Origin: a bacterium
Lineage (GTDB): Bacteria > Patescibacteriota > Patescibacteriia > JAGPKW01
DNA length: 64,000 bases
Direction: 5' to 3'
Assembly: GCA_021780535.1 (NCBI GenBank)
Contig: JAJXYN010000009.1
Span: forward strand, 303,923-367,922
This document shows positions 20,401 through 35,755 of the stretch, one piece after another; positions within the stretch are counted from its first letter, which is position 1, and each line of letters opens with the position of its first letter. Under the pieces are notes generated by a model. The model had not been told where the DNA came from. It made no database searches and worked only from the letters and a program-made list of their open reading frames with translations. A program made the position numbers and the translations under genes.

Positions 20401-20438
20401 CCTGATATTGAAAATCCATAACTAACTAATACAATAAA

Positions 20439-20672: not shown

Positions 20673-20691
20673 TTTTTAATACTAAATAAAA

Positions 20692-21783: not shown

Positions 21784-21816
21784 AAAAAAATCTAGAGATT
21801 AATTTCTCTAGATTTT

Positions 21817-23247
21817 TTAGTCTATTATGTAAATACGAGGCGGTCCTTTGTATTCAGTAATAAAGTATATACAAGCTATTGTTAAAGCATCGACTAAATC
21901 ATCATGTTTAGTGCTTCCAAAATCTAATATTTGATTTATTAATTCTTTATTACAACCCTTAGGAAATCTTATAATACCTTCTTTTATATGATTAGAAATC
22001 ATATTCAATCTAGTTCTTTTATCCTTACCACCAAGACTATAAGATACAACACCATCTACACCATCCTTTTTCAATTGTTGTTCTATTGCTTGTTGATAGC
22101 CATTATTTTCTATAATTATTTTAGTTCTTCTTTCGTTATTTTCTTTAATATCTTTTAGTGTTTGTATTGTCTCAGGAAACTTCATTTTCTTATTTATAAT
22201 CTCAGGCATTACATAAATAATATTTTTATGACCATATTCTCCAACATCTTCTTGATAACATTTTATTGTAACTATTCCAGTATAATCAGCTGTATCTCTT
22301 TGAGATATAGCAGGATCTACTCCTGTTATATAAGTTAGGAATTGTCCGTCTCTATGAGTTATTTCATCATAATAATGTATCCATTCAGGCTCTATAATTG
22401 CATCATCATCAGGAACTATTTTTAACATATACTCTCTTTCAAATATTCTGTCATTAAAAACTTTCCTTCTCTCAAATTCTATTGCATCAGTATTAGGATA
22501 TTTTGATAACCAGTTTATAGTTCCATCATCTTCCATTAATTTTATTTCTTTATAAATGCCATCAATTTCATTAAGTTCTAATTTATCTTTCATTCTCATT
22601 AAAAGTGAATCTCTGTGGAGTAAATTACCAACAAAAATCATTCTAGTATTAATATCTCCAGTTGGAATAATTTCACCAGTAATCCAATCAAACATCTTAT
22701 TTCTACTTTCCATAGTTCTAACAGATTCTGTATCTTCAATATCATCACAAATAATAATTTGAGGCCTATTACTTTTATGTCTAATACCACGAATAGATTG
22801 TTCCATGGAAACTGCCATTATTTTTGCATCATATTCTGGAATTAAAATACATCTATTATTCCATTCTTTGTCTGAAATTGAATAACTATAATCTTCTTTT
22901 AACAACCTATTTTCTTCAAGTTCACGACGAATATTTATTAAATGTTGTCGCGCTTGTTTTTCTGTTTTTCCAAGAACAAGAATAAATTTAATATTATTAT
23001 TCAATATAGACCATATAGGGAATGAGGTAGTGATAATAGTTGATTTAGCAGAACCACGAAAAGCTACTATTACTAAATTTCTTATACTATCATCCTTAAT
23101 TAAACCAAATAATTCTTTATGAAAAGGTGCTGATTTTAACTTTAGATAATGTCTAAAATAAATTCCAAAAAATACCCTATTATCAAGTTTAGAGGCATAA
23201 ATTCTGGAAACTTTATTTTTAATTATATTGTCAAAATCAACACTCAT
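21817..23247 (-). CDS. Phage terminase large subunit
   Basis: VIVAFRGSAKST Walker-A-like ATPase motif; C-terminal RNaseH-like nuclease motif DDLVDALTIA. Confidence 0.8.
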   Translation of the reverse strand: MSVDFDNIIKNKVSRIYASKLDNRVFFGIYFRHYLKLKSAPFHKELFGLIKDDSIRNLVIVAFRGSAKSTIITTSFPIWSILNNNIKFILVLGKTEKQARQHLINIRRELEENRLLKEDYSYSISDKEWNNRCILIPEYDAKIMAVSMEQSIRGIRHKSNRPQIIICDDIEDTESVRTMESRNKMFDWITGEIIPTGDINTRMIFVGNLLHRDSLLMRMKDKLELNEIDGIYKEIKLMEDDGTINWLSKYPNTDAIEFERRKVFNDRIFEREYMLKIVPDDDAIIEPEWIHYYDEITHRDGQFLTYITGVDPAISQRDTADYTGIVTIKCYQEDVGEYGHKNIIYVMPEIINKKMKFPETIQTLKDIKENNERRTKIIIENNGYQQAIEQQLKKDGVDGVVSYSLGGKDKRTRLNMISNHIKEGIIRFPKGCNKELINQILDFGSTKHDDLVDALTIACIYFITEYKGPPRIYIID

Positions 23248-23249
23248 TT

Positions 23250-23618
23250 TTATAAATTATTTAATGATTCTTTTAATTCTTCTTTTTCTTCATCAGATAG
23301 TTCAATTTCATTCTTAATCTTTCCTGATAACTGAACTTTAGTTCTGAATTTCTCATGTCTATTCTTTAACCAGAATATTACAGCTGTAAGTTCATTATCT
23401 TTAATGTTTTGTATTAAAGTACTTTCTGCCATATCATTTATCAATTCAGAACCTCTTTGGATTGCATCATCAACTTTAGATTTCAATTCAAAATCTTTCT
23501 CTATCCAACGATAAAAAGTTTGTCTTGTTATTCCTATCTTCTTACAAGCAATTTCTATAATAGGAGCTTTCTCTAATTCTGAAATTAATCTATCTGTGAT
23601 AGCCTTAGTTTTTTTCAT
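23250..23618 (-). CDS. Phage terminase small subunit-like HTH protein
   Basis: IGITRQTFYRWIEKD HTH and AVIFWLKNRHEKFR motif typical of TerS; immediately upstream of TerL. Confidence 0.55.
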   Translation of the reverse strand: MKKTKAITDRLISELEKAPIIEIACKKIGITRQTFYRWIEKDFELKSKVDDAIQRGSELINDMAESTLIQNIKDNELTAVIFWLKNRHEKFRTKVQLSGKIKNEIELSDEEKEELKESLNNL

Positions 23619-24388
23619 AATTTTTCAGCTTTTAAATTAGTTAACTTTTCCCAACGTTTAATAATAACTTCACAATAATGTGGGTCTTTTTCTATTGATA
23701 TACACCTTCTTTTTGTATGCTCTGAGGCAATAATAGTAGAACCGCTGCCACCAAAACAATCATAAACAATGTCATTTATCCTTGTGCTGTTTAAAATAAT
23801 CTTCCTAAGTAATCCTATCGGTTTCATTGTTGGATGAAGACTACTACTATTTGGTTTTGGATAATATAAAACTGTTTTATCTTTTGAACCTATAAATTCA
23901 TGTTTTCCAAACCATCCATAAAGTATTAATTCATGCATGGGAAGCCAATCATTTCTTGTTATGGTGCTGTGATTCTTAACCCAAATTAATAATTGAGCTG
24001 TTTTAATTTTTAACTCATCAAATGCTTGTTTTAAGGCAAACAACATTTTGTCTGAATTAAAAACATAAATTAAGTTTTTATCTTCTAATTTTGATAAAAC
24101 TGGTTCAATATATTTCTTTGTAAATTCTACATATTCTTTATCTGTAGATATGTTATCGTTCTCAATAATTCTATCTACTTTTACATCAGCAAATCCTTTC
24201 TTATTTTCTACATAAGAAATACCATATGGAGGATCTGTAATTATTGCTTTTATCTTATTTTCTCCAATGACTTTATTTACAAAGTCATTATCTAAACTAC
24301 TTCCACATCCTAGAATATGAGAACCTAATCTAAAGATTTCTCCATTTTTAATTAAGTTTTTTTGCTTTTTGTCCTGTATATTTTTCAT
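23615..24388 (-). CDS. DNA methyltransferase (N6-adenine/N4-cytosine, beta class)
   Basis: IITDPPYGI (motif IV) followed by C-terminal DCFGGSGST (motif I). Confidence 0.85.
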   Translation of the reverse strand: MKNIQDKKQKNLIKNGEIFRLGSHILGCGSSLDNDFVNKVIGENKIKAIITDPPYGISYVENKKGFADVKVDRIIENDNISTDKEYVEFTKKYIEPVLSKLEDKNLIYVFNSDKMLFALKQAFDELKIKTAQLLIWVKNHSTITRNDWLPMHELILYGWFGKHEFIGSKDKTVLYYPKPNSSSLHPTMKPIGLLRKIILNSTRINDIVYDCFGGSGSTIIASEHTKRRCISIEKDPHYCEVIIKRWEKLTNLKAEKL

Positions 24389-25634
24389 ATCTTTTTATTA
24401 TTAATTTTATAAATTTAGGTTGTTTTTCAACTAGAAAACACCTTCTTTTTAATTGAATAGCACTTAGTAAAGATGAGCCCGATCCTCCGAATAAATCCAA
24501 TATTATGTCATTAACTTTTGTGCATCTTCTAAATGGTTTTTCATTTAAATCTAGTGGCTTGCTAGTTGGATGTTCATAATCACTAGCTGGTAATCTTTTT
24601 GAAAGCCAAATATTAAATAGATCTAATATGTCATCAGTTAATCCATTTCCAGTTCCTATTTCTTTATTTAATATTTCATTAAAATTTTTTATATCTTTAT
24701 TTATAAATGGTCTACCTCTAGTTCCGTATACACAAGATTCCATAACCTTGTTAAAAGCACATGAGACAACGGGATTTGCATTGTTTTTAATCCATAAACA
24801 AACTCTTTTATTTTCAATTCCATTTTGTTTAAAAGTGTCTTGCATTAATCCTATATATTTTTCATCACACCAATAAAAAACGTGGCAATCTTTCTCGCAA
24901 ACAGATAATCCATTTTTTATTGTTTTATCTATAAATTCAGAATATTCTTTATCACTTAAATTATCATCTATTTTGTCTCCATATTTTTTCTTTCCCCCTA
25001 CGCCTTTTTCATAATCAAGATTAATATTATATGGGGGATCACAGTATAAAATTCCAACCTTATTTTCACCAAGAAGTTTTTTCACAATATTTATATCAGT
25101 AGAGTCTCCATATATGAGACGATTATTACCAAGCTCAAAAATGTCACCGTATTCTATATCCAATAACTCCATTTCTTCATCTATATTTTCTAGTTCTTTT
25201 TCTTCATCAAAATTATCATCCTCTATTTCAAGAACATCGTCCCATATAGAGCTTAAATCTTTATCATCAAAACCAGATTCAATAAGCAAATCCATATCTA
25301 AGTCTTTTAATAAATCCCAATCCCATGATCCTGTATTTCTATTAAGTCTTAAGCAAAGTTCTTTTTCCTTACTTAAATCTTGGATATTCAAATACACAAC
25401 AGGAATTGTTTTATATCCAAGACTTTTAGCAATACTCCATCTAAAATGACCACCTAGAATTATATTTTTTCTATCTTTATACCCATTACAAATTACTGGA
25501 TCTATAAGACCGAACTTTTTTATACTATCTGTTAAATCAGAAGTTTCTTTTTTCGACCATTTACGAGGGTTAACCTCAATTGATTTTAAATCATTGACAT
25601 TAACCTCAACGATTTTTATGTTTTCTTTATCCAT
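24348..25634 (-). CDS. ParB-like nuclease domain fused to DNA methyltransferase
   Basis: N-terminal ParB-N motif (IEVNPRKWSKKE...GLIDPV), LYCDPPYNI, DLFGGSGSS. Confidence 0.85.
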   Translation of the reverse strand: MDKENIKIVEVNVNDLKSIEVNPRKWSKKETSDLTDSIKKFGLIDPVICNGYKDRKNIILGGHFRWSIAKSLGYKTIPVVYLNIQDLSKEKELCLRLNRNTGSWDWDLLKDLDMDLLIESGFDDKDLSSIWDDVLEIEDDNFDEEKELENIDEEMELLDIEYGDIFELGNNRLIYGDSTDINIVKKLLGENKVGILYCDPPYNINLDYEKGVGGKKKYGDKIDDNLSDKEYSEFIDKTIKNGLSVCEKDCHVFYWCDEKYIGLMQDTFKQNGIENKRVCLWIKNNANPVVSCAFNKVMESCVYGTRGRPFINKDIKNFNEILNKEIGTGNGLTDDILDLFNIWLSKRLPASDYEHPTSKPLDLNEKPFRRCTKVNDIILDLFGGSGSSLLSAIQLKRRCFLVEKQPKFIKLIIKRYEKYTGQKAKKLN

Positions 25635-25839
25635 ATTTTCGGATTAGATTAATTAGTTAAAATAGTGTTTTTAAAAACAAAAATGGACTATTTTGTAAGA
25701 ACTACAAAAGAGGGTTACTCTTTCATAATTTTTACAAAATAGTCCATGTTGAGGCGCAATGCCTCTCTAGTGTTTTAACACCTTCTATCAAACATTTCTG
25801 TTTGAAATATACAATTACTATTTAAGTAAAGTTTATATT

Positions 25840-26400
25840 TTATTTTGTTGTATCCTTATAATCAAAAACTATTCTCATATTCATCTTTTTGAAAACATCT
25901 TCATCTATAACTATTGGTAGCTTATCAGAAGACACAAACGTTCTTTTTTTGTTACTAGGCTTATCCATACTGCTAAACATAGCCTTGCCATCATTAAATA
26001 TAACTAGCTCATCTTTTTTCATAAAGAATCTTCCTTGTTTACCGTTTTTCTTACTTTTACTAATACCTCTTATTAAGTCATTTGTATTAGAATGAGTAAA
26101 ATTATGAGCCCCTATATCTGTTAAGCAAACACCTTCTACTTTATTAACTACCATTTTAATATCAAATCCGGGTTTATACATCTGTTTAATATTATCAGCT
26201 TGTTCGCTAATAATACTAGAAGTTCTTTTTATTATTTCCTCATCACTAGAAGCATTATCTAAACCAAGTTTATCAATGGCGAATAAATCAAATATAAAAT
26301 TCATTTGAATACCATCTACAAGATATTGTATCTTTAAAGAATCCATATTTGAATTTCTGTAATCTGTTATAGTTTTTGAGAAGGTAATGTTTTCATCCAT
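25840..26400 (-). CDS. Hypothetical protein (prophage region)
   Basis: ORF only. Confidence 0.3.
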   Translation of the reverse strand: MDENITFSKTITDYRNSNMDSLKIQYLVDGIQMNFIFDLFAIDKLGLDNASSDEEIIKRTSSIISEQADNIKQMYKPGFDIKMVVNKVEGVCLTDIGAHNFTHSNTNDLIRGISKSKKNGKQGRFFMKKDELVIFNDGKAMFSSMDKPSNKKRTFVSSDKLPIVIDEDVFKKMNMRIVFDYKDTTK

Positions 26401-26409
26401 TTTGTTTTA

Positions 26410-26652
26410 TTAAAATTTAGTATCTATTATCTTAGACTCATTACCATAAGAATCAGAATCTCTGAATTTATTATTTCTACCTTGTATTTTCAGTTCTGAT
26501 TTTTGATGTATTGCTATAGACCTTGCTTTTTCTATTGCTTCTTTTTGAGTATTGAATAAAAATGTCATTTTGCTATTATTTTCTCCCTTTACACCCCAAT
26601 CTTTTTTGCTTTTATTGTTTTTTAGTTTTACAACATATTGATTTTTTCCCAT
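26410..26652 (-). CDS. DUF2188-family small protein
   Basis: WGVKGENNSKMTFLFNTQKEAIEKARSIA...RDSDSYGNE fits the DUF2188 pattern. Confidence 0.5.
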   Translation of the reverse strand: MGKNQYVVKLKNNKSKKDWGVKGENNSKMTFLFNTQKEAIEKARSIAIHQKSELKIQGRNNKFRDSDSYGNESKIIDTKF

Positions 26653-26822
26653 TTTATTTTTTGTTAATATTTAGATTATTATTTGAACTTAAGCCTTTAT
26701 TGTCTGTATACCCACAATCTGGACAAGTTCCTTGTGGTTTTGGTTTTTCTTGGTTACAATTTGGACAAGGATTTACGTCCTTTTGATTTATTTCTTTATC
26801 AAACATAAATTTAGATTAATGG

Positions 26823-27134
26823 TTAGTACTTATTTTGAATATTATATTTTGGCTTGAACTTGAAAATTTCACTCTTTTCTAAATCCTCAGCTTCTTTTAT
26901 TGTTGAGCAGGTGCAATAATTAAAATGTGTAATTCCATACCACTCATTAGCTTGAATATGTTGTAAAAGCCTTCCTCTTACACCTTGCTCGCTTGTAGCT
27001 TTTCCTACATAGTCTACATTTATTGTACCCTGTTGATTTGCTTGTCCTAGGTAATAAATTCCTATAACATTTGAATTCCAATTAGAGATAGTATTCTTAT
27101 CATAACTAAATGGTCCTTTGTAAAATTGAATCAT
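26823..27134 (-). CDS. Small stand-alone GIY-YIG nuclease-domain protein
   Basis: GIYYLG...(10 aa)...DYVGKA, then R (VRGRLLQH) and downstream E/N residues. Confidence 0.55.
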   Translation of the reverse strand: MIQFYKGPFSYDKNTISNWNSNVIGIYYLGQANQQGTINVDYVGKATSEQGVRGRLLQHIQANEWYGITHFNYCTCSTIKEAEDLEKSEIFKFKPKYNIQNKY

Positions 27135-27338
27135 ATTTCTAAAATTACTTAATTAATTTATAAATTCTGACCTTTGAAGGAGAGATTTTTAACGCTTATA
27201 GGTAGTATACAATAAAAAAATATTTTTGTAAACAAGTGAAAGTGTTTTTTAAAAATATTAACTTATTTAAATTAAAACTTTACATATGTAAACTTTTAGT
27301 ATAAAATACTAGTAGATAACAAAGAAATCACACAAAAT

Positions 27339-27986
27339 ATGACAAAAAATGAGGAATTTTTACTTAAGAAAATAAAGGATAACAAATTAGACGGATTATC
27401 TCTTAGAGAAATATCTGATTTAATACCAAATAGTGCTGGAAATGCAGGAACAGCACAATATTATTTAGAAAAACTTCAAAAAAATGGTTATATAATTTGG
27501 AATAGAACAAGAAAGAAAATTGTTTTACTTGGTGAAGTTGTTAAACAAAACATAAAATCAAATGTTCTTAGGCTCCCTTTTTATGGATATGCTAATTGTG
27601 GAGAAGCTTTATCTTTTGCAGATAATACCATTGAAAGATTTATAGAAGTATCATCTCCAATTTTAAAAAACAAAACTCAAGATGATCTTTTTATAGTTCA
27701 AGCAGATGGAGATTCTATGAATTTGCAGGAAATTAATGGTAAAAAAATAGAAAGTGGTGACTTTATTATTATTGATAAAAGTGAAATCAATGATTTGAAA
27801 AATGGTGATTGTGTTCTATCAATAATAAATGGAATGGCTAATATAAAAATATATAATAAAAGTGTTAAAGATGATTATATAAAATTGGAACCAAATTCCT
27901 CAAACAAGAATCATTTTCCGATATTTATTCATGAAGATGGAAATTTCACTATAGCAGGAAAGATTTTAGAAATAATAAAAAAATAA
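27339..27986 (+). CDS. LexA/CI-like repressor (HTH + S24 peptidase domain)
   Basis: N-terminal winged HTH (LSLREISDLIP...YYLEKLQKNGYI); GDSM serine motif and downstream Lys in C-terminal S24 domain. Confidence 0.75.
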   Translation: MTKNEEFLLKKIKDNKLDGLSLREISDLIPNSAGNAGTAQYYLEKLQKNGYIIWNRTRKKIVLLGEVVKQNIKSNVLRLPFYGYANCGEALSFADNTIERFIEVSSPILKNKTQDDLFIVQADGDSMNLQEINGKKIESGDFIIIDKSEINDLKNGDCVLSIINGMANIKIYNKSVKDDYIKLEPNSSNKNHFPIFIHEDGNFTIAGKILEIIKK

Positions 27987-28035
27987 AGGGTTAAAACCCT
28001 TTATTTTTGTTAGAGTTCATTATTAATTCATTAAA

Positions 28036-29217
28036 ATGTCTAAAAATCTAAAAGAAAAACAATATTATGAAGACCTATATGATTCTGAAACAATAGAAGA
28101 TTGTAAGAGAATGTTTTGTAATTCTACTGATAGAAAGTTTTTAGACAAAGAAATTAATAAATATAAAGACAAGAAATCGGCATCAGAAATGTTAAATAAA
28201 TGGGCTGATACAGTTGATAAAATAGGTCTATATTTCTTTAAAGGAGATAGATATAGAAAAAGAGAAGAAACAATAAGAGAATGGATGGCAAAAGATAGAA
28301 ATAGAGACCAAAAACTGGAAAATACAAATTTGGAAAATATTAAATGTAAATATTGTAATACCCTAATGGATTTAATAGATAAAGATTATTTTCCAAAGAA
28401 TATTGAACCATTAGAAGAATCTATATTATTTATCTACAGTTGTCCTAAGTGTAAAAAATCTAGAGCAATATTTGAAAATAATGAGGAATATATTCCAAAA
28501 AAAGTATTATGTCCTAAATGTAATAATGAACTAGATGTAAAAGGAAATGCAACCGAAGACAAGCTTATAACAACTTATAAATGCAATAATTGTGATTATA
28601 TAAATATTGATGAGATAGAAAGATTTAAACCAGAAAATAAAGAAATAGATTATGAACAATTTCTAAAAAATAAAAAAGAATATTGTTTAGATGATAAAGA
28701 AGGAATGGAATATGTTTCTCAATCTATAAGACTAGAAAGTCTCACAAAAGAATTCGAGAAAGATAAAGAAAAAGAAAAACAGAAAGCAACATACGATAAA
28801 ATAAAAGAACTTAATAAACCCAAAATATTTGACTTACAAGAACTTTTATCAAAAGGATTAGAAAAATATAAGTTTGTTAAATTAAATTTTAAAGAACCAC
28901 AAATTGAGAAGTTTATCACTATAGAATTTACAATTTATGACTCAGAAAGCTCTAGAAGTGAATATGATGCTAAAAATATATTACAAAAGCAAATAGAAGC
29001 AATATTAAAAGAAACTAATTGGATTTTGATGAGTGATGGAATTAGCTATAGATTAGGAATGTTGTCTGGAAGATTAAAAGCTTATGAAAGAGAAGAAGAT
29101 TTAGTTGAATTAGTTAATAAAAGATTTAAAGATCTAAAACCTAAAGAAGAAAAAATAGACTCAAACAGAAAAGACTGGGTTGTGAAAGGTGCAAACGGAG
29201 AGGATATAACTTTATGA
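28036..29217 (+). CDS. Multi-zinc-ribbon protein, unknown function
   Basis: CKYCN..CPKCK and CPKCN..CNNCD; its 3' ~95 bp is duplicated at 36112..36207. Confidence 0.4.
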   Translation: MSKNLKEKQYYEDLYDSETIEDCKRMFCNSTDRKFLDKEINKYKDKKSASEMLNKWADTVDKIGLYFFKGDRYRKREETIREWMAKDRNRDQKLENTNLENIKCKYCNTLMDLIDKDYFPKNIEPLEESILFIYSCPKCKKSRAIFENNEEYIPKKVLCPKCNNELDVKGNATEDKLITTYKCNNCDYINIDEIERFKPENKEIDYEQFLKNKKEYCLDDKEGMEYVSQSIRLESLTKEFEKDKEKEKQKATYDKIKELNKPKIFDLQELLSKGLEKYKFVKLNFKEPQIEKFITIEFTIYDSESSRSEYDAKNILQKQIEAILKETNWILMSDGISYRLGMLSGRLKAYEREEDLVELVNKRFKDLKPKEEKIDSNRKDWVVKGANGEDITL

Positions 29218-29498
29218 TAGAAGAAGATTATATAACAACGGTTGGAAAAATAATCCCGCCTAAAGGCAAAAATAGAATGCCAATAAGATATTTAGTTTCA
29301 TACCCCAAGGAATTTAATGAAAGATTATATGAGGAATCAATGGAGGCTATTTATAAAATAATTTTTTATTATGATAAAACAAAAACTACCACCAATGAAA
29401 GTTGTGATTCCGCCCCAAGGAAAAAGAAGATTCTCAATAATAATGGAGGCATGCTTTCCAGAAAATCCAGGCCAAAGAGAACAAGAGGAATTATTTAA
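29214..29498 (+). CDS. Small protein carrying repeat unit 1 (IIPPKGKNRMPIRYL...); possibly the 5' part of a frameshifted gene
   Basis: Paralogous ~45-aa unit recurs in the overlapping +1-frame ORF 29371..29595. Confidence 0.35.
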   Translation: MIEEDYITTVGKIIPPKGKNRMPIRYLVSYPKEFNERLYEESMEAIYKIIFYYDKTKTTTNESCDSAPRKKKILNNNGGMLSRKSRPKRTRGII

Positions 29499-29595
29499 AG
29501 CAGTTGATAAAATAATAATCTCTGAAATTATGAAGGATATGAATAAAAATGACCCATATTATAAAGAATATGAAAAAATACTTAACATATTATAA
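29371..29595 (+). CDS. Small protein carrying repeat unit 2 (VIPPQGKRRFSIIME...)
   Basis: See previous; alternative start ATG at 29395. Confidence 0.35.
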   Translation: MIKQKLPPMKVVIPPQGKRRFSIIMEACFPENPGQREQEELFKAVDKIIISEIMKDMNKNDPYYKEYEKILNIL

Positions 29596-29637
29596 GTTAA
29601 GTTGTAGGATAAAAATAAGATTTTTAAAAAAACCAAA

Positions 29638-30102
29638 ATGAATGACGAAAATAAAAGAAAACACTTAGAAATGATACAAAATATAGTTACTAGAATGGGA
29701 AATAATTTATTTTTCCTAAAAGGTTGGTCTATTACAATAATAGCAGCTATATATGCTATTCTTGCAAAAGATATAAGTTTAAAATACATGATTTTCGCAG
29801 CAATTCTTCTTATAATACTATGGATTCTTGACGGTTATTTCTTACATCAAGAAAGATGTTTTAGAGATTTATATGATGCTGTAAGAATTAAAAAAGAAGA
29901 AGATATAGACTATTCTATGAATATAAAAGAATATATAAAAGGAAAAAATACTTGGTTAAAATCAATGTTTTCAAAAACATTAAATATATTTTATGGATCA
30001 ATGTTATTTTTAATAATTATTATGATTGTGTTATCAAATATTAAAATAAATATATCTATTACTTGGAACAATCAAAACAATAATCAAATAATACAAAAAT
30101 AG
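29638..30102 (+). CDS. Small 3-TM membrane protein, translationally coupled to downstream TIR-like gene
   Basis: Predicted TM helices WSITIIAAIYAIL, MIFAAILLIILWIL, SMLFLIIIMIVL; stop at 30102, next start at 30104. Confidence 0.45.
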   Translation: MNDENKRKHLEMIQNIVTRMGNNLFFLKGWSITIIAAIYAILAKDISLKYMIFAAILLIILWILDGYFLHQERCFRDLYDAVRIKKEEDIDYSMNIKEYIKGKNTWLKSMFSKTLNIFYGSMLFLIIIMIVLSNIKINISITWNNQNNNQIIQK

Positions 30103-30103
30103 A

Positions 30104-30763
30104 ATGGGCAGAAAAATATTTGTTAGCTATAAATATGCTGATTCATCTGTTCCGGATTTAAATCTTGGTGAACAGACAACTGTTAGGCATTATGTTGATA
30201 TAATACAAGGACTTTTATCAGAAGAAGATCATATAAACAAGGGTGAAAACGATGGAGAAGATTTAAGTTCTTTTAAAGAAAGTACGATAGAATCAAAATT
30301 AAGAGATAAAATATTTGATAGCACTATAACAATAGTTTTAATATCAAAAAACATGAAAGATCCTAGCAAGAATGAATCAGACCAGTGGATACCTTGGGAG
30401 GTTTCATATTCATTAAAAGAGATTACAAGAGGAGATAAAACAAGTGGCACAAATGCCATGTTAGCAGTTGTTTTACCAGATGAAAAAAATGATTATTCCT
30501 ATTTCGTAAATCACTTTGCTTGTACTACAAGTTGGAATACAGATATACTTTTTAAAATTCTTGGAAATAATATGTTTAATAGGAATAATAAAAATTTAAT
30601 CTCATGCCAAACTTGTGGAGGAACGCATCATATAGACGATGATCACTCATATATTCACCCAGTAAAATGGTGCGATTTCATAAAAGATATAAATAAATAT
30701 ATAGATATAGCTTTAAAAATGAATAATAATCTCAATGAATATAAAATTCAAAAGGAATTATAA
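30104..30763 (+). CDS. TIR-like domain protein (ThsB/DUF1863-like) with Cys/His-rich C-terminus
   Basis: KIFVSYKYADS N-terminal strand motif and SDQWIPWEVSYSL (W-x-x-E) motif as in ThsB (RVFFSFHYQD ... RRWVRYEIMKS); recalled alignment, not computed. Confidence 0.6.
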   Translation: MGRKIFVSYKYADSSVPDLNLGEQTTVRHYVDIIQGLLSEEDHINKGENDGEDLSSFKESTIESKLRDKIFDSTITIVLISKNMKDPSKNESDQWIPWEVSYSLKEITRGDKTSGTNAMLAVVLPDEKNDYSYFVNHFACTTSWNTDILFKILGNNMFNRNNKNLISCQTCGGTHHIDDDHSYIHPVKWCDFIKDINKYIDIALKMNNNLNEYKIQKEL

Positions 30764-30906
30764 TTTTGTTTTTGTTATCTATATACATTAATGACGCAAT
30801 AAAAATCACATATCTAGCAGTTGATAACTTATAATATTTTAGGCTAATATTAGCTATATTATGCTGATATTTATCTATAAAGTCAAGTTAAAAACCTTCT
30901 ATTTTT

Positions 30907-31020
30907 TATGTGTAACATTTGTAACATTTTTTTGCGACCGAGATGCCTCATTTTTCTCCAAAATCCTACCCCCAAAACCCCTTATGGTGCTTGTATGTGT
31001 GGGTACCAGACCGAGGCTTC
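30907..31020 (+). repeat. ~115-bp repeat unit (tgtgtaacatttgtaacattt...gcgACCGAGATGCCtcatttttctcc...cttcccgcc), second copy at 35475..35629
   Basis: ~85% identity between copies; contains a second instance of the accgagatgcc motif also present just downstream of tRNA-Ser. Confidence 0.7.
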
Positions 31021-31412
31021 CCGCCATACAGGGCTACCGAGATGCCTAGTTTTACTATGATGGCATTGAGTTATCCCAGAAAAATCATCAGAAATGGTGA
31101 TTTTTTGTTTTTTTATTTCTCTAAGGTTGGTCAATAAATTTTTTATAAATTTCTCAATTTTCGAATACCTTGAAATGCAGATTATAAATTAATGAAAATC
31201 CCTCATTAATAAACAATTAAATTTGGTTCGAAACCTAGATGCTCTGTTGGTAACTAGAGCTTCGCAAGGTTTTTGGTTATGTTAACATACTAATACCAAC
31301 GCGACATTTCGGTCTTATTTGGTAAATTAACAAAAATAAAAAAAGATACTTCTCTATAATCGAAAGGCGTCTAAATTATAAAATCTTAATTTTTAATAAT
31401 AGAGATTAAGAA
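31021..31412 (+). repeat. Flank repeat copy B (partial tRNA-Ser 3' end ccgcca + downstream flank)
   Basis: See copy A; terminator hairpin variant atcatca-gaaa-tggtgat. Confidence 0.8.
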
Positions 31413-31541: not shown

Positions 31542-32882
31542 ATGTCAGATAACATAAAACAAGAAGAAGCTAATCAACAAAATGACAATAAAATATTAAG
31601 TAAAGAAAAGGAAAAAGAACTAGATTTTTTCATTACAACTCCATTAAGATCAGCTAACAATTTAATGAACAAATTATATAGCGATGATAGTTTTTATGAA
31701 ACAACTACTTATGCATTTGTTTCACCAGGAGATGCTAAAAAACTTTTTTTCTATGGAGCGTGTAAGGAGGTATTAAAAACCTGTATATATTTAATGAACA
31801 ATAAAGAATTTCTAGGAGGATCTATAAATGATAAAGATTTTGGTATTGTAGAAAAAGTAATAATGGGGTCAACAATAGATACTCAAACATATCATAGAAG
31901 AAAGATGGTGGAGCTATTAAGTATTGTTATATTATTTGATAGAAACACTAAACATGATGAAGAATACAGAATATATAAATCAGCTGAGAATTTAGATTTA
32001 TTCCTAAGCAGACAATCTGATTTTAAAGAACTTTTTAATGGAAAAATAATATTAAATACTCAACATTCAATAGATGATTTTATAGGAAGGATTGATAGTG
32101 ATAAAAAAGCCATCGAACTTACAGATGTTTGGTTTTTAAATGAAAAAAAACTAAAAAATCAAACTCCAGGTATATTTAAGAGCAAAAAAGGAATATATGA
32201 TTCAGCAATGCTTGTTGCTACTCCTGATGAAAAAATAGCTCTTGGTATATCCTATGGCCGTGGCTATTCTCGTGCTAGTCAATCAATTCATCCAATGTTA
32301 GGAAGTAGTAATTATGGTAAAGAAGATAATGATATCGAACATGTACTTATGAATTCAATTTATATGTCAATTATATGTATGCAAATAATGCATATAGCCT
32401 ATAAGTTAACTGGTTTTGAGGATGAATTTGGATTATCAAAAATCATGGGAACTAATTTTGAAAAATCAGAAGCATCTAAATCAATTGGAGTTTTACAGAA
32501 AGATTTTGATAAAGGAGATCTTATACTTACTTCATGGACAGATATTGCAGAAATAATTGATGAAGAAACAAGTAAATACGGATATAAGGCTTATAAAATA
32601 AAATATCTTTTAACACCACCGCTACCAGAATATCCAGAAGATTGGATAGAAGCACAAAACATATTAGCGCGTATATTATCAAAAAAAACTGTAAGAAAAA
32701 TGTTTAACAATATGGTTATAGAAAAAATGTCTAAAGATGTTATTGAATTATGGCCCGATGTATTAAAACAACCAGATGAAGAACTTATGAAATCAGCAAA
32801 ACATGTGTTTATTGATTTACATAAAGCCAATGTCTTGATACCAATGTTACTAAAAAGTGGTTTCTTAAAGAAAACTAGTTAA
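31542..32882 (+). CDS. Hypothetical 446-aa protein (sole cargo of module B)
   Basis: Intact ORF, host-like composition, no recognisable motif. Confidence 0.45.
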   Translation: MSDNIKQEEANQQNDNKILSKEKEKELDFFITTPLRSANNLMNKLYSDDSFYETTTYAFVSPGDAKKLFFYGACKEVLKTCIYLMNNKEFLGGSINDKDFGIVEKVIMGSTIDTQTYHRRKMVELLSIVILFDRNTKHDEEYRIYKSAENLDLFLSRQSDFKELFNGKIILNTQHSIDDFIGRIDSDKKAIELTDVWFLNEKKLKNQTPGIFKSKKGIYDSAMLVATPDEKIALGISYGRGYSRASQSIHPMLGSSNYGKEDNDIEHVLMNSIYMSIICMQIMHIAYKLTGFEDEFGLSKIMGTNFEKSEASKSIGVLQKDFDKGDLILTSWTDIAEIIDEETSKYGYKAYKIKYLLTPPLPEYPEDWIEAQNILARILSKKTVRKMFNNMVIEKMSKDVIELWPDVLKQPDEELMKSAKHVFIDLHKANVLIPMLLKSGFLKKTS

Positions 32883-32896: not shown

Positions 32897-34198
32897 TTAA
32901 TTTTTTATTAAACTAATCTTCTTATTTTTCATTACAAACTTATTCTTAAACATACCCATAAACTGTCTTTTTTCTTCTATAGAACCGTGATTTAATATAA
33001 ACTTGGCATAATCTACCAAGTCTACTTTTCTATCGTTCATACCTCTTTCTACATTGTTTATTTTTAGTACTTGTTTTTGTAGATGAGCAAATCTTTCTAC
33101 TTCTATTCTTAACTTTTCTTTAATGTCTTCTTCGGGAATATCAATATCTTTTAGAAGCTTTACTATTTGCTCTATAAATTGTTCTTCTCTAATATATCTA
33201 TTACTACATTTAAGATCTTTTGTTCTATTACATCCATAGTAAATATATTTATTTACTCCACCATTTTTTAATTTCTTATGTTTTTCTACTGCACATAAAT
33301 TAGAACTACAATGGCCACAAATCATAGACCCTAAGAATGCAAATTCTTTTTCTCCATATCTATAACTAGCTTTTCCTAATTTTATTTTTCTTTGAACTAT
33401 TTCAAAGAGTTCTTTTGTAATTATTGGTTGATGATTTCCTTGGCACCAATTACCACTTCCTGCTGGATATTCAAACCATCCATAATAAAAAGGCCTTCCA
33501 AGTAGTATATAGATATTTGCTAAGGATAAATTCTTACCACTTTTTGTCGTGAAATTTTGCTTTACAAACCAACTATGTAAAGCTCTACCAGAATAGTTTT
33601 CATAAGCCACCTTCTCAAATGCTTGTTTAATTATTGGGGCTCTTTCAGTATCTGGAATTACTACTCCTGTTTTATTTTTTCTTTCATCATTAAGATATCC
33701 AATAGGCGCAACTCCTATCCAAAATCCTTTTGATGTTTTAATTTTAAGACCTCTTTTTACATTGATACTTTTATTATCATTCTCAAGTTTAGCCTGACCG
33801 CCAAGTACAGCTAATAGAAATTTATCATTCGGAGTATTTTTAAAGTTTTGATTATATGTTCTTATTTCTTTCAGGTAACTACTATCTATCAGGTCTATTA
33901 TACTTCCTAAATCCCCGGCATTTCTTGAAAGTCTATCAGTATTCCATGTTAGAATACCTTCAAATTTTCCTTGTCTTAATTCTTTTATCATTTCATTAAA
34001 TACTGGTCTTTGACTTGAAGCTTTTGCAGAATGGGCTTCTTTTTTTATACAAACTACATTTAAACTATCTCTTTCTGCTATTAAACTCATTTCATTCTCT
34101 TGAGCTTCTATCGAAAGAGCTTGTTTTTCGTCTTCTTCACTAGATTTTCTAGCATAAAGACAATATCTAATTTCTGATGAAAACCCTTTGTTTTCCAT
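32897..34198 (-). CDS. Large serine recombinase (second copy)
   Basis: 8 aa differences from 12003..13304 over 433 aa. Confidence 0.85.
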   Translation of the reverse strand: MENKGFSSEIRYCLYARKSSEEDEKQALSIEAQENEMSLIAERDSLNVVCIKKEAHSAKASSQRPVFNEMIKELRQGKFEGILTWNTDRLSRNAGDLGSIIDLIDSSYLKEIRTYNQNFKNTPNDKFLLAVLGGQAKLENDNKSINVKRGLKIKTSKGFWIGVAPIGYLNDERKNKTGVVIPDTERAPIIKQAFEKVAYENYSGRALHSWFVKQNFTTKSGKNLSLANIYILLGRPFYYGWFEYPAGSGNWCQGNHQPIITKELFEIVQRKIKLGKASYRYGEKEFAFLGSMICGHCSSNLCAVEKHKKLKNGGVNKYIYYGCNRTKDLKCSNRYIREEQFIEQIVKLLKDIDIPEEDIKEKLRIEVERFAHLQKQVLKINNVERGMNDRKVDLVDYAKFILNHGSIEEKRQFMGMFKNKFVMKNKKISLIKN

Positions 34199-34339
34199 AT
34201 ATTTATCATTAATTTGTTATCTATACACATTAATGACGCAACCCATCTAGTGCGTCTAGGATGAGTTGTTGGTAAGTTGTAGGTAAATAAAAAAGAGCCC
34301 TGTTGTCAGGGCTCTACTCAAGAAAGATTGACTTGTGTG

Positions 34340-34864
34340 TTACTTGTCTTTCTTCACTATGAGTTTTGGCGCATCGATGTTGAGAGGCGCCCCGGAGTAA
34401 ATGTAGGTAGCGTTGGCACCTGCAAATTCAACCGGATTTCCGTCGGGAAGGAAGAAGTGGATACCTGGGTTGTTTTTACCATAGGTACCGTCCAGATCAG
34501 GAGCATCAACAATTTGGTACGAATAATTACCACTAAAGTTGAATTTCTGCATCATTTGTTCAGGGTAAATGTACGACTGAGTTGAGGCAGGCTTTCCTTC
34601 GGTTACGAAATAGCCAATGCAGTAGTTACCCACAAAGATGTAGGTATATGCCGGTACGCTTGGCTTGTTCCAATACTCGTACCAACGCTTCTGCGTCATG
34701 GCTTCCTGGAAGTAGTCGAGCTTAGGCGGACCACCAATTGCCTCAATGACCGCTTTAGCATTTTCTTCCTGGGACTTTTCCAGTTGTTGCCTGGCGGTTG
34801 GTTCCCAACTACAACCCGAGAGAACGGCTCCAACAAGGAGCAACAAAAAAACGAGTTTTCTCAT
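34340..34864 (-). CDS. Lipoprotein, compositionally foreign (~48% GC)
   Basis: LSGC lipobox after signal peptide; 4-nt overlap with upstream gene. Confidence 0.5.
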   Translation of the reverse strand: MRKLVFLLLLVGAVLSGCSWEPTARQQLEKSQEENAKAVIEAIGGPPKLDYFQEAMTQKRWYEYWNKPSVPAYTYIFVGNYCIGYFVTEGKPASTQSYIYPEQMMQKFNFSGNYSYQIVDAPDLDGTYGKNNPGIHFFLPDGNPVEFAGANATYIYSGAPLNIDAPKLIVKKDK

Positions 34865-35307
34865 TTTTCACCTCCGATAGTATCGTTGACCATTTGGATC
34901 TCATAAGGCAGATCCTCAGCCTTCCACAAATTTCTGGTCTTCTGCTTTGACCGACTGTTGTACTGCTGGATCTGATTGTTGAGAATCATTTTCAGACCAG
35001 TGTAATCAGTCAGGCGAAGACTGTTGGTATCAGTGCCCCTGGAAAGCTCGAAAGCTTCCTTGGCGGCGGCCAGGTTTGCTTTTGATGCATCAATCTGAGC
35101 CTTCTGGTCGTAAAACCATTGGTAATCAGAGATGATCTTGTGCGGATCAGTGACCTCGGAAACGATACCGGTTGCGATGCTGAACGGCCAAATGTGAGCG
35201 ATGGCGCTCACACCAAGATAGATACCAACAACAATAATGATGCCGATAATCCACTTGACAGTTTTCTTCGAGGTAGCTTCTTCAAGCTCGTCCCTCAGAT
35301 ATCCCAT
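34861..35307 (-). CDS. N-terminally TM-anchored protein, compositionally foreign, canonical GGAGG SD
   Basis: GGAGG 7 nt upstream of ATG (absent from host genes); single N-terminal TM. Confidence 0.5.
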   Translation of the reverse strand: MGYLRDELEEATSKKTVKWIIGIIIVVGIYLGVSAIAHIWPFSIATGIVSEVTDPHKIISDYQWFYDQKAQIDASKANLAAAKEAFELSRGTDTNSLRLTDYTGLKMILNNQIQQYNSRSKQKTRNLWKAEDLPYEIQMVNDTIGGEK

Positions 35308-35703
35308 ACGTACCTCCTTGTCCTATTTTGGACTCTATTACTATAACATAAATAGTACATTTTGTCAATTATTTTTGCCATCTTTACTTATTATTTTTAT
35401 TTAATACTATTCAATAAAATATAAACATTTTTGAATATGTAGTGTCGCATATGTCGCATTAAATTTGTCTTTTTTTGTGTAACATTTGTAACATTTTACA
35501 TCCTATGTACTGTCTAATTTGTCCAATTTTTACCTCTGCGACCGAGATGCATCATTTTTCTCCAAAACCCTACTCTTAAAACCCCTTATGGTACTTGTAT
35601 GTATGAGTACCAAACCGAGACTTCCCGCCTTCGCTCGCTATAGCGAGCTTCAGCGGATAAATCCGCAAGGATATTATTCAAAGAAAATACTCCATTAAAA
35701 AAT

Positions 35704-35726
35704 CTCGCGAAAGCGGGCTTTTTTAA
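35704..35726 (+). terminator. Hairpin + T-run (ctcgc-GAAA-gcggg-ctttttt), preceded by two short perfect palindromes
   Basis: gctcgctatagcgagc and gcggataaatccgc palindromes at 35631..35668 then terminator-like hairpin. Confidence 0.35.
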
Positions 35727-35755
35727 TATTTGAATTAATTTTTAATTAACTTTTT

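What the first reader, a model, noticed from the sequence alone, without database searches (positions are those of the whole stretch)
34292..35335. 1-kb compositionally foreign island (~48% GC, canonical GGAGG SD) inserted exactly at the end of module B
Identity between the two recombinase modules stops at 34291. The next base begins a GC-rich hairpin (gagccctg-ttgtc-agggctc) and two overlapping genes, a lipoprotein and a TM-anchored protein.
- Their codon usage is far GC-richer than anything else in the window.
- One of them has a textbook GGAGG ribosome-binding site, whereas host genes show no SD.
- Composition returns to ~25% GC at about 35335.
- This is either a very recent horizontal acquisition targeted to the module boundary or a chimeric assembly join.
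Basis: seen in the sequence. Interest (0 to 1): 0.6.

Follow-up and report, generated by a model that had tools for sequence, protein, structure and literature searches.

The report
Foreign phage-type gene cassette in mobile element
The 1-kb GC-rich stretch is real, horizontally acquired DNA: a self-contained two-gene cassette (membrane protein plus lipoprotein, of a widespread but uncharacterised phage family) carried as cargo in a small recombinase-driven mobile element next to a serine tRNA gene. It is not an assembly error and not a very recent event.

Summary
Window 34295-35320 is 47% GC against 26% for the rest (z 7.6; tetranucleotide z 14). Its two genes have GC3 of 0.52-0.56 against 0.09-0.23, and both carry GGAGG ribosome-binding sites, which only 2 of 60 other genes have.

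It is not a chimera. Three further independent assemblies reproduce the junctions. A 91%-identical ortholog from another sample has the same layout, with a compensatory change in the hairpin.

The island is a complete transcription unit: promoter TTGACA-17-TATAGT, two translationally coupled genes and an intrinsic terminator. That is the anatomy of a phage "moron".

It lies in the variable body of a 4.6-kb large-serine-recombinase element (31026-35629). This is the distal unit of a 27-kb tandem array inserted at the 3' end of tRNA-Ser(GCT). A related contig has the empty site.

In sibling elements the same slot holds restriction-modification and Abi genes, or phage genes.

The membrane protein and lipoprotein are a conserved adjacent pair. 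Each family has more than 500 sequence clusters, including phages of Arthrobacter, Microbacterium, Klebsiella and Rhizobium. No member has a known function.

The genes are under purifying selection (dN/dS 0.06-0.09). My best functional guess is envelope-level superinfection exclusion, at about 35% confidence.

The parts
8588..8677 (+). tRNA-Ser(GCT). Its 3' end (CCGCC, 8672-8676) is the left attachment junction (attL) of the inserted array.
   Evidence: ARAGORN and Rfam. In the empty-site contig L043 the same tRNA is followed directly by the sequence found at window 35630 onwards.
8678..31025 (.). Unit A of the tandem array, a phage-like element. In order it holds: X_A block, ArsR/thioredoxin/ArsP/DsbD cargo, recombinase A (12003-13304, -), P-type ATPase, sigma factor, LOOT RNA, terminase small and large subunits, methylases, CI/S24 repressor, a ThsB-TIR-like ORF, W_A block and Z (30933-31025).
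   Evidence: It is syntenic with IMG/VR contig L041.
31026..31537 (.). X_B, the conserved non-coding left-end block of unit B. The internal junction CCGCC|ATACAGGG lies at 31021-31033.
   Evidence: 90.6% identical to X_A, which abuts tRNA-Ser. The block is present downstream of every related recombinase (L035, L036, L037, L041).
31542..32882 (+). 446-aa ORF of unknown function, occupying cargo slot 1 of unit B.
   Evidence: No match in Pfam, NCBIfam, PADLOC or PHROGs.
32897..34198 (-). Large serine recombinase B (433 aa).
   Evidence: Resolvase + Recombinase + Zn_ribbon_recom domains. 93% nucleotide identity to copy A, with dS 0.43 and dN/dS 0.025.
34199..34290 (-). Conserved recombinase 5' UTR / promoter block. 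Its outer edge is the left border of the variable slot.
   Evidence: Alignment of eight copies. Similarity ends at about 34287-34294 in all of them.
34294..34315 (-). Intrinsic terminator of the cassette: AGAGCCCTG-ACAA-CAGGGCTCT followed by TTTTTATTTA.
   Evidence: The ortholog L028 has GAGCTCTG..CAGAGCTC, a compensatory change that keeps the stem.
34340..34864 (-). Lipoprotein gene (174 aa, lipobox LSG|C). Its SD GGAGG lies at 34871-34875.
   Evidence: Family alignment. dN/dS 0.064 against L028.
34861..35307 (-). Gene for an N-terminally membrane-anchored helical protein (148 aa). Its SD AAGGAGG lies at 35313-35319.
   Evidence: dN/dS 0.093 against L028.
35340..35368 (-). Sigma-70-type promoter TTGACA-17 nt-TATAGT, 11 of 12 matches, with TG extension.
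   Evidence: Both hexamers are conserved in L028 although the spacer has changed.
35390..35536 (.). W_B, the conserved right-hand block of the element. It contains TGTGTAACATTTGTAACATTTT and forms the right border of the variable slot.
   Evidence: 89% identical to L035 135-243, where it flanks a type I R-M/Abi cargo. The motif is also present in L036, L037, L041 and at 30898-30930.
35537..35629 (.). Z', the element-side arm of attR. It ends in the shared core CCGCC (35625-35629).
   Evidence: 89% identical to Z at 30933-31025. Junction sequences are listed.
35630..35727 (+). Native sequence downstream of tRNA-Ser, with its terminator (35704-35717 plus T-tract). This is host DNA to the right of the array.
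   Evidence: 80% identical to the sequence that directly follows tRNA-Ser in L043. Terminator found.

Best explanation
**What it is**
The island is a horizontally acquired, self-contained expression cassette. On the minus strand it reads: sigma-70 promoter, SD, membrane-anchored protein gene, SD, lipoprotein gene (coupled by an ATGA overlap), intrinsic terminator. This is the anatomy of a phage 'moron'.

**Where it sits**
- It occupies the variable body of a 4.6-kb element mobilised by a large serine recombinase (unit B, 31026-35629).
- The slot lies between the conserved recombinase 5' UTR and the conserved W/Z' end.
- Unit B is the distal member of a 27-kb tandem array (8678-35629).
- The array integrated by recombination at a CCGCC core in the 3' end of tRNA-Ser(GCT).

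**Origin**
The cassette came from a phage-associated gene pool of mid-GC, SD-using organisms. The actual donor is unsampled: the best relatives are 50% identical or less.

**How it most likely works (inferred)**
- The two products assemble on the outer face of the cytoplasmic membrane. One is held by its N-terminal helix (N-in, C-out) and the other by its lipid anchor.
- They are expressed constitutively from their own promoter.
- My preferred mechanism, at about 35%, is that they protect the carrier cell at the envelope by blocking genome entry or adsorption of incoming phages, in the way of prophage Sie proteins.

**Shown versus inferred**
- Shown: composition, gene structure, promoter/SD/terminator motifs, independent junction support, orthologous copy, purifying selection, pair conservation in phages, element architecture, empty site.
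- Inferred: complex formation, topology, expression, the exclusion function and recombinase activity.
For: **The island is foreign DNA**
- GC z = 7.6 and tetranucleotide z = 14.1.
- GC3 and SD usage differ from the 60 other genes.

**The junctions are real**
- Both are reproduced in independent assemblies.
- They are also present in a 91%-identical ortholog with co-diverged flanks.

**It is a working transcription unit**
- Promoter and terminator are detected.
- Both are conserved in L028, and the terminator stem carries a compensatory change.
- dN/dS is 0.093 and 0.064.

**It lies inside an integrated element**
- The recombinase has the LSR domain set.
- Recombinase copies at 83-99% nucleotide identity to those in the window sit in six other contexts. 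All have the same X ... recombinase-UTR ... variable body ... W order.
- The empty attB is found in L043. There tRNA-Ser...CCGCC is joined directly to the sequence at window 35630 onwards, and the left flank is syntenic for 3.7 kb.
- attL, the internal junction and attR all share CCGCC.

**Contents of the same slot in sibling elements**
- L035: type I R-M plus Abi_alpha/PDC-S47.
- L036/L037 and L041: type II R-M.
- L030: Dam-type methylase.
- Unit A and L041: phage genes.

**The two genes are a phage-associated pair**
- An adjacent TM partner is found in 17 of 25 loci that carry a lipoprotein homolog.
- Both partners are recognisable in Arthrobacter phage EvePickles gp70/71, Microbacterium phage Caron gp26/27 and Klebsiella phage Eowyn 325/326.
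- The lipoprotein family has 558 clusters and the TM family 504.

**Fit to the moron concept**
- Morons are defined by deviating GC content plus their own promoter and terminator.
- The first characterised moron product, HK97 gp15, is a superinfection-exclusion protein (PMC3594210).
Against: **No direct functional evidence**
- There is no match in Pfam, NCBIfam, PHROGs (functional categories), PADLOC or PDB sequences.
- The AlphaFold models have pLDDT 61 and 76 and give no significant fold matches.

**Context in cultured phages**
- There the pair lies among early, recombination and nucleotide-metabolism genes.
- That fits exclusion, but it fits other early functions equally well.

**The slot argument is guilt by association**
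- The slot also holds non-defence genes, such as the P-type ATPase and phage genes of unit A.

**Limits of the empty-site evidence**
- Synteny with L043 to the right of the site extends only about 0.3 kb.
- X-like fragments to the right of attR (36275-36330) hint at older decayed insertions. The 'native' flank may itself be old element DNA.

**Other gaps**
- Recombinase activity, excision and the exact crossover dinucleotide are untested.
- The host taxon, and therefore its envelope type, is unknown.
Confidence: 0.7

Rival explanations
1. Chimeric assembly or contamination: the GC-rich kilobase belongs to another organism and was joined in silico.
For: There is an abrupt compositional switch at both ends. 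One independent contig (L002) stops at 34321, inside the hairpin.
Against: L003 and L004 come from different samples and different assemblers, and each spans both junctions at 99.9-100% identity. L028 carries the same junctions at 91% identity, with flanks that diverged in step with the island. The terminator T-tract is shared with the recombinase UTR block.
Confidence: 0.02
2. A very recent insertion that the cassette itself targeted to the recombinase-module boundary, for example by its own site-specific mechanism.
For: A/B identity ends within a few bases of the hairpin. The composition shows no obvious amelioration: GC is 0.47 in both orthologs.
Against: - The cassette has no recombinase, no terminal repeats and no target duplication of its own.
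- The same border is the start of the variable region in all family members, whatever their cargo.
- The arrangement predates a divergence of dS 0.2-0.5.
Confidence: 0.1
3. The pair is a two-component spanin (Rz/Rz1-like i-spanin plus o-spanin) left over from a prophage lysis cassette.
For: - The architecture matches: an N-terminal TM helix followed by long helices, then an overlapping lipoprotein gene.
- In L012 the pair follows an SLT lytic transglycosylase gene.
- In uncultured large phages it follows a T4-type RNA ligase gene. From my own memory, the T4 spanin genes pseT.2/pseT.3 have a similar neighbourhood.
Against: - Homologous pairs occur in phages of Arthrobacter and Microbacterium. 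From general knowledge these hosts have no outer membrane.
- There the pair lies among recombination and nucleotide-metabolism genes, not lysis genes.
- The mature lipoprotein is 157 aa, predicted beta-rich, and has many invariant motifs. From my own knowledge, typical o-spanins are short and proline-rich.
- In the window there is no holin or endolysin, yet the genes are under strong purifying selection and have their own constitutive-type promoter.
- The pair also occurs among housekeeping genes in MAG contig L026.
Confidence: 0.07
4. The pair is a membrane complex with a function other than exclusion. Examples are anchoring or assisting phage DNA replication or recombination at the membrane, modifying the envelope, or signalling. 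It would then be carried here as neutral or otherwise beneficial cargo.
For: - It is consistently placed next to RecE/RecT, ERF/YqaJ, SSB, exonuclease and helicase genes in phages.
- It has strongly conserved motifs (YQWFYDQ, YNSRSKQITRNLWKA-DLPY, GKPASTQSY, DLDGTYG-NNPGIRFF), which suggest a specific ligand or partner.
- No PADLOC match was found.
Against: - Both conserved domains are predicted to lie outside the cytoplasm, away from the DNA machinery.
- In the window it is retained under purifying selection in an element that has no replication genes.
- Sibling elements carry defence genes in the same slot.
Confidence: 0.4

Closest known systems
Phage morons, e.g. the HK97 gene 15 moron (Juhala et al. 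2000; Cumby et al. 2012, as summarised in PMC3594210)
   Same: It is an independent transcription unit with its own promoter and terminator. Its GC content differs clearly from its neighbours. It lies in a phage-derived or mobile element at a position where relatives carry other genes. Its products are membrane proteins.
   Different: - It sits in a 4.6-kb recombinase element that has no phage structural genes, not in a complete prophage.
- It has two coupled genes rather than one.
- It shows no sequence similarity to gp15.
- Expression and phenotype are untested.
Surface lipoprotein or membrane superinfection-exclusion proteins: Ltp of S. thermophilus phage TP-J34 (PMC3952083), P22 SieA (PMC10883804), T5 Llp, phi80 Cor, T4 Imm/Sp (the last four from my own knowledge)
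   Same: The proteins are encoded by a phage or mobile element, anchored in the envelope (a lipoprotein and/or an inner-membrane protein), and expressed independently of lytic genes.
   Different: No detectable homology to any of them. Here the unit is an obligate-looking TM plus lipoprotein pair found in phages of both monoderm and diderm hosts. No exclusion phenotype is known.
Two-component spanins (lambda Rz/Rz1, T4 PseT.2/PseT.3)
   Same: The gene architecture matches: a TM-anchored helical protein followed by an overlapping lipoprotein gene.
   Different: The pair is present in phages of hosts without an outer membrane. It lies outside lysis cassettes. The lipoprotein is large, conserved and beta-rich. 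The pair is retained without lysis genes (see the rival explanation).
Integrative elements driven by large serine recombinases that accrete in tandem at one site, e.g. SCCmec/SCC composite islands with CcrAB at rlmH (from my own knowledge), and serine-integrase prophages (at most 28% identity to the recombinase)
   Same: The recombinase has the Resolvase + Recombinase + zinc-ribbon domains. Integration is at the 3' end of a conserved gene with only a short shared core. Units are arranged in tandem and separated by att-like junctions. Accessory and defence cargo is variable.
   Different: The target is tRNA-Ser(GCT). The recombinase is only distantly related to characterised ones. The units range from a phage-like 22-kb element to a 4.6-kb mini-element. 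Activity is unproven.

Membership tests
Phage moron | [quoted passage not shown] | tested here: met
   47% against 26% GC, z = 7.6. GC3 is 0.52-0.56 against 0.09-0.23. Definition taken from PMC3594210.
Phage moron | Own promoter and own terminator | tested here: met
   TTGACA-17-TATAGT at 35368-35340 and a 9-pair hairpin plus T-tract at 34315-34294. Both are conserved in the ortholog L028, with a compensatory stem change. These are motif-level findings only; transcription was not measured.
Phage moron | An addition between genes that are adjacent in related phage genomes | tested here: inconclusive
   Relatives share the flanking UTR and W blocks but carry other cargo between them (R-M, Abi, phage genes). 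No relative with an empty slot was found.
Phage moron | Expressed from the repressed prophage and beneficial to the host | not testable with these tools
   This needs transcriptomics or a phenotype. Purifying selection (dN/dS 0.06-0.09) is only indirect support.
Large-serine-recombinase integrative element | Recombinase with Resolvase catalytic domain, Recombinase domain and zinc ribbon | tested here: met
   PF00239, PF07508 and PF13408, all above their cut-offs.
Large-serine-recombinase integrative element | Insertion relative to an empty attB, with att junctions sharing only a short core | tested here: met
   L043 has tRNA-Ser...CCGCC|TTCGCTCGC. The window has CCGCC|ATACAGGG at 8672 and 31021, and CCGCC|TTCGCTCGC at 35625. 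Right-flank synteny is only about 0.3 kb.
Large-serine-recombinase integrative element | Excision or integration catalysed by the recombinase (circular form, attP) | not testable with these tools
   This needs reads or PCR across a Z'|X circular junction, or an in vitro assay.
Two-component spanin | i-spanin with N-terminal TM helix and helical periplasmic domain, plus o-spanin with a lipobox | tested here: met
   TM helix at residues 18-38 with helices at 55-88 and 95-124. Lipobox LSGC.
Two-component spanin | Confined to phages of hosts with an outer membrane and linked to holin/endolysin genes | tested here: not met
   Homologous pairs occur in Arthrobacter and Microbacterium phages next to RecE/RecT, SSB and exonuclease genes. 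The window has no lysis genes near the pair.
Known superinfection-exclusion / defence protein families (Ltp, PADLOC models) | Sequence membership in a described family | tested here: not met
   No PADLOC, Pfam or NCBIfam match, and no PHROG match with a functional annotation. The only NCBIfam matches are weak signal-peptide-level ones.
Known superinfection-exclusion / defence protein families (Ltp, PADLOC models) | Protects the carrier cell from phage infection | not testable with these tools
   This requires phage challenge experiments.

The most novel reading that the evidence does not exclude
The membrane-protein plus lipoprotein pair is a new, widespread two-component envelope-level anti-phage (superinfection-exclusion) system. 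It would be shared by lytic and temperate phages of both monoderm and diderm bacteria, and traded as a ready-to-express cassette between mobile elements across phyla. Here it has landed in a 26%-GC genome that hardly uses SD sites.
Probability: 0.3. Interest if true: 0.6.

Novelty: new member of a known kind. Interest (0 to 1): 0.4.

Why it matters
- **A clean worked example.** A sequence that looks like a suspicious compositional break turns out to be real cargo of a mobile element. Both junctions, the empty site and the element architecture are all resolved from public data alone.
- **A gene pair worth testing.** The finding flags a conserved two-gene family, with more than 500 clusters for each partner, that has never been characterised. 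Members are present in easily handled cultured phages (Arthrobacter EvePickles gp70/71, Microbacterium Caron gp26/27, Klebsiella Eowyn). Its position in a slot that otherwise carries restriction-modification and Abi systems gives a testable hypothesis: exclusion at the cell envelope.
- **A recombinase family.** It also defines a family of serine recombinases that target tRNA-Ser at a CCGCC core and build tandem arrays in uncultivated low-GC bacteria.

Tried and rejected
**Searches for a function that gave nothing**
- Pfam, NCBIfam, PHROGs and PADLOC gave no informative match for either protein.
- PDB profile searches gave only noise.
- AlphaFold2 with the shallow alignments then available gave pLDDT 61 for the lipoprotein and 76 for the TM protein.
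- In hindsight the structure predictions should have waited for the deeper alignments.
- A search for domain fusions among relatives found none that were useful.

**RNA and pattern searches**
- Rfam at permissive thresholds found nothing in the Z/Z', W or X blocks.
- An exact-pattern scan for the recombinase UTR in IMG/VR found nothing.
- Two of the three IMG/VR hits to the W motif (L039, L040) were unrelated mid-GC contigs.

**Host taxon: not determined**
- The window holds no marker genes.
- Cluster look-ups carry no names.
- Accession numbers are not in the paper library.
- The LOOT RNA literature gave no lineage.

**Amelioration: no conclusion**
- S>W and W>S differences between the two orthologs are equal (35 and 35).
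- This is uninformative, because an unpolarised comparison is symmetric by construction.

**Readings considered and rejected**
- Spanin: rejected on host range and gene context.
- Native highly expressed genes: rejected because GC3 is far outside the range of the other genes in the window and the genes lie inside inserted DNA.
Full report
**1. The observation**

A sliding GC profile shows 43-51% GC from about 34290 to 35320, against 15-33% on both sides. No other kilobase of the window exceeds 35%. For the 1026 bases 34295-35320, GC is 47.0%; other stretches of that length have a mean of 26.1% and sd of 2.7, so z = 7.6. The tetranucleotide distance to the rest of the window has z = 14.1.

The stretch holds two minus-strand ORFs:
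- a 174-aa lipoprotein at 34340-34864, starting MRKLVFLLLLVGAVLSG|C;
- a 148-aa protein at 34861-35307 with one N-terminal TM helix.

They overlap by ATGA. Their GC3 is 0.52 and 0.56, against 0.09-0.23 for the 60 other ORFs of at least 100 aa. Both have GGAGG 5-6 nt before the ATG, whereas only 2 of the 60 others have any SD-like motif.

BLAST puts the end of identity between the two recombinase modules at 13400/34294, with 93.2% identity over 1399 nt.

**2. Not a chimera, and not very recent**

Exact-protein look-ups found the two genes on five contigs from four samples. Aligned to the window:
- L003 (ENA ERZ27236874) covers 35702 to 33470 at 99.9% identity.
- L004 (Logan assembly of SRR17201898) covers 35650 to 34236 at 100%.
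- Both of these cross both junctions.
- L002 (ERZ27236866) crosses the right junction and stops at 34321.

A fifth, diverged copy is more telling. L028 (Logan SRR8925783, 1261 nt) aligns end to end with 35496 to 34230 at 91% identity. It has the same low-GC right flank, promoter, two genes, hairpin and recombinase 5' UTR.

Identity by segment:

| Segment | Identity |
|---|---|
| W / promoter | 86.9% |
| TM gene | 94.6% |
| Lipoprotein gene | 90.3% |
| Terminator | 85.7% |
| Recombinase UTR | 91.8% |

The island and its flanks therefore diverged together.

The hairpin stem changes from GAGCCCTG/CAGGGCTC to GAGCTCTG/CAGAGCTC, which is a compensatory change.

Between the two copies, dS is 0.22 and 0.47 and dN/dS is 0.093 and 0.064. 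The genes are functional and the arrangement is old. For comparison, dS between the window's two recombinase copies is 0.43.

**3. Anatomy of the island**

On the minus strand there is a near-consensus sigma-70 promoter, TTGACA-17-TATAGT with a TG extension, at 35368-35340. There is also an intrinsic terminator at 34315-34294: 9 pairs, 6 of them G-C, followed by TTTTTATTTA.

The full order is: promoter, AAGGAGG, TM-protein gene, GGAGG, lipoprotein gene, terminator. The terminator's T-tract is the first part of the block shared with module A. This explains why the A/B identity appears to stop 'exactly' at the hairpin.

A deviating GC content together with an own promoter and an own terminator is the published description of a phage moron (PMC3594210).

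**4. What surrounds it: a recombinase element family**

The neighbouring 433-aa protein has Resolvase, Recombinase and zinc-ribbon domains, which makes it a large serine recombinase. It is at most 28% identical to characterised phage serine integrases.

Closely related copies of this recombinase occur elsewhere. The protein copies belong to one 90%-identity cluster. The genes are 89-99% identical to the window's copies in nucleotides. The copy in the IMG/VR contig L041 is 83% identical in nucleotides. In every case the order is the same: X block, cargo 1, recombinase, about 90 nt of conserved 5' UTR, variable body, W block containing TGTGTAACATTTGTAACATTTT, a short sequence ending in CC(G/A)CCA, and then, where the contig continues, the next X.

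Similarity among all UTR copies ends at the position equivalent to 34287-34294.

Contents of the variable body next to the UTR:

| Element | Variable body |
|---|---|
| L035 | Type I R-M plus Abi_alpha (PADLOC PDC-S47) plus YgjP |
| L036 / L037 | R.Pab1-type endonuclease plus type II methylase |
| L041 | Two methylases plus a 174-aa ORF |
| L030 | Dam-type methylase |
| Unit A | P-type ATPase, then phage genes: terminase large subunit (phrog_38, E = 2e-84), terminase small subunit, CI/S24 repressor, ParB-methylase |
| Unit B | Only the GC-rich cassette |

Cargo slot 1 is likewise variable:
- ArsR/thioredoxin/ArsP/DsbD in A and L030;
- a GajB-like UvrD helicase in L035;
- a weak HEPN-like ORF in L036;
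- an unknown 446-aa ORF in B.

**5. The array is an insertion at tRNA-Ser**

X_A begins at the CCGCCA 3' end of tRNA-Ser(GCT) at 8588-8677. X_B begins at an identical CCGCCA that ends the 93-nt Z block (30933-31025). A second copy, Z' (35537-35629, 89% identical), ends in CCGCC and is followed by unrelated sequence carrying a terminator.

This predicted an attB made of the tRNA 3' end joined to the sequence at 35630 onwards. A scan of metagenome contigs for the tRNA 3' end found exactly that in L043 (JGI Ga0302292_1000439, 28% GC). There tRNA-Ser(GCT) ...CCTCTCCGCC is followed by TTCGCTCGCTGTAGCGAGCTTCGGCGGATAAATCCGC... This is 80% identical to window 35625-35734, including the terminator.

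The 3.7 kb to the left in L043 is syntenic with window 5681-8676. Hence 8678-35629 (27 kb) is inserted DNA. It consists of two tandem units, A (8678-31025) and B (31026-35629), and CCGCC is shared by attB, attL, the internal junction and attR. L037 shows another member of the family sitting next to tRNA-Ser.

Caveats:
- Synteny to the right of the site in L043 extends only about 0.3 kb.
- Fragments of X occur to the right of attR (36275-36330), so older decayed insertions may lie there.
- Non-canonical recombination (attP with attL or attR) is needed to build a tandem array. This is known for SCC elements (my own knowledge) but untested here.

**6. The two proteins**

The lipoprotein has 12 relatives in a single-sequence search and 558 clusters with a profile. 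All are 150-205 aa, none carries a Pfam domain, and every one that has a name is 'hypothetical' or 'membrane protein'. Apart from its own cluster (which holds the L028 ortholog), none is more than about 50% identical to the window protein.

The TM protein has 19 relatives, and 504 representatives in the exhaustive profile search. In 17 of 25 loci with a lipoprotein homolog, a TM-partner homolog lies immediately upstream on the same strand.

The pair occurs in these contexts:
- uncultured phage-like contigs with DNA polymerase A, T4-type RNA ligase, Thg1, SIR2, ERF/YqaJ and SLT genes;
- MAGs of Spirochaetota, Treponema and Victivallaceae at 44-46% identity, and a few Saccharibacteria, Parcubacteria and Bacillota contigs;
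- cultured phages of Arthrobacter, Microbacterium, Curtobacterium, Rhizobium, Klebsiella/Serratia, Fusobacterium, Tenacibaculum and Streptococcus.

In EvePickles (gp70/71), Caron (gp26/27) and Eowyn (325/326) both partners are recognisable. They sit among RecE/RecT, SSB, exonuclease, NrdH and helicase genes.

Both families have strongly conserved motifs: YQWFYDQ and YNSRSKQITRNLWKA-DLPY in the TM protein, and GKPASTQSY and DLDGTYG-NNPGIRFF in the lipoprotein.

The closest contigs have 33-59% GC. Combined with the GGAGG sites, this points to a mid-GC, SD-using, phage-associated donor pool. The donor itself is not in the databases.

**7. Mechanism**

Shown: the cassette has the signals of an autonomous, constitutively expressed unit. 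Its products carry export and anchoring signals. It is maintained by selection in an element without lytic genes. The same pair is maintained in many phages.

Inferred: the TM protein is N-in/C-out, because lysines precede the helix. The lipoprotein is lipid-anchored on the same face. The two form a complex, as suggested by translational coupling and co-conservation.

I consider envelope-level superinfection exclusion the most likely role, at about 35%, for three reasons:
- This is what prophage morons and phage-encoded lipoproteins or membrane proteins typically do. Examples are HK97 gp15, Ltp and SieA (PMC3594210, PMC3952083, PMC10883804).
- Sibling elements carry R-M and Abi systems in the same slot.
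- Early expression in lytic phages also fits (T4 Imm/Sp, my own knowledge).

Another extracytoplasmic role is about equally likely.

A spanin role is unlikely, at about 7%. The pair occurs in phages of hosts without an outer membrane and outside lysis cassettes. The lipoprotein is large and conserved. Here the pair has no holin or endolysin partner.

**8. Comparison, novelty and verdict**

The island is a new example of a known kind of thing: a moron-like cargo cassette in an integrative element. Its horizontal-transfer alternative is right in substance, but wrong on 'very recent' and on 'targeted to the boundary'.

What is new, to a modest degree:
- the uncharacterised and widespread two-gene family;
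- the tRNA-Ser-targeting serine-recombinase element family with modular defence cargo in a 26%-GC lineage that hardly uses SD sites.

Interest is 0.4. The host taxon remains undetermined.

Noticed in passing
window 20238-20354 (+): A LOOT RNA (Rfam RF03000, 67 bits against a gathering score of 46) lies inside the phage-like unit A, upstream of the terminase genes. The region is conserved at 78% in IMG/VR contig L041 (4312-4547).
   Followed up: partly
window 8678-9076 and 31026-31537 (X blocks): A non-coding block of about 400-500 nt is conserved at 84-93% among all related recombinase elements. Its hairpin ATGCC...GGCAT (8693-8719 / 31042-31068) becomes ATACC...GGTAT in L036, a compensatory change. 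It may be a structured RNA or an att-proximal regulatory region. There is no Rfam match.
   Followed up: partly
window 30933-31025 and 35537-35629 (Z, Z'): These 93-nt direct repeats (89% identical) bracket unit B. They contain a hairpin kept by wobble or compensatory changes (GGTGCT..GGTACC versus GGTACT..AGTACC). In L035 and L036 the same position holds unrelated sequences of about 68 nt that also end in CC(G/A)CCA. Their nature (att arm or small RNA) is unresolved.
   Followed up: partly
window 13320-13348, 34214-34242, 30773-30800: A 28-nt motif, TTGTTATCTATAYACATTAATGACGCAA, occurs in both recombinase 5' UTRs. It occurs again near the right end of unit A, without a recombinase gene next to it. 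It may be an operator or protein-binding site, or a UTR remnant.
   Followed up: no
window 30104-30763 (+): A 219-aa ORF at the right end of unit A matches the Thoeris ThsB TIR-like domain (PF08937, 23.6 bits, cut-off 21.2). It is a possible defence gene.
   Followed up: no
window 35756-36550: The 78-aa GIY-YIG ORF (35756-35992) just right of attR is absent from the empty-site contig L043, apart from its last 50 nt or so. Further right, 36109-36209 copies 28997-29097 (93%) and 36275-36330 copies X 8702-8758 (96%). These look like remnants of older insertions.
   Followed up: partly
whole window: Only 2 of 60 non-island genes have an SD-like motif, and GC3 is 0.09-0.23. The rest of the window is rich in metal and redox resistance genes (CopA-type and another P-type ATPase, a CDF transporter, an ACR3-like protein, a thioredoxin-reductase fusion). 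The host taxon could not be determined.
   Followed up: partly
window 11612-12023 and 38708-39114: Two ArsR/HTH_5 genes with their upstream regions are 86% identical at the nucleotide level. One lies inside unit A next to the recombinase. The other lies outside the array, next to a TauE gene.
   Followed up: no
L026 5986-6950 (MAG contig CALXWP010000006.1, 29% GC): A distant low-GC version of the pair occurs with the gene order swapped (lipoprotein first, then a 130-aa TM protein ending ...PEDLP). It lies between a DapF-MurE-like fusion gene and an inorganic pyrophosphatase-like gene, which is an apparently chromosomal, non-phage context.
   Followed up: partly
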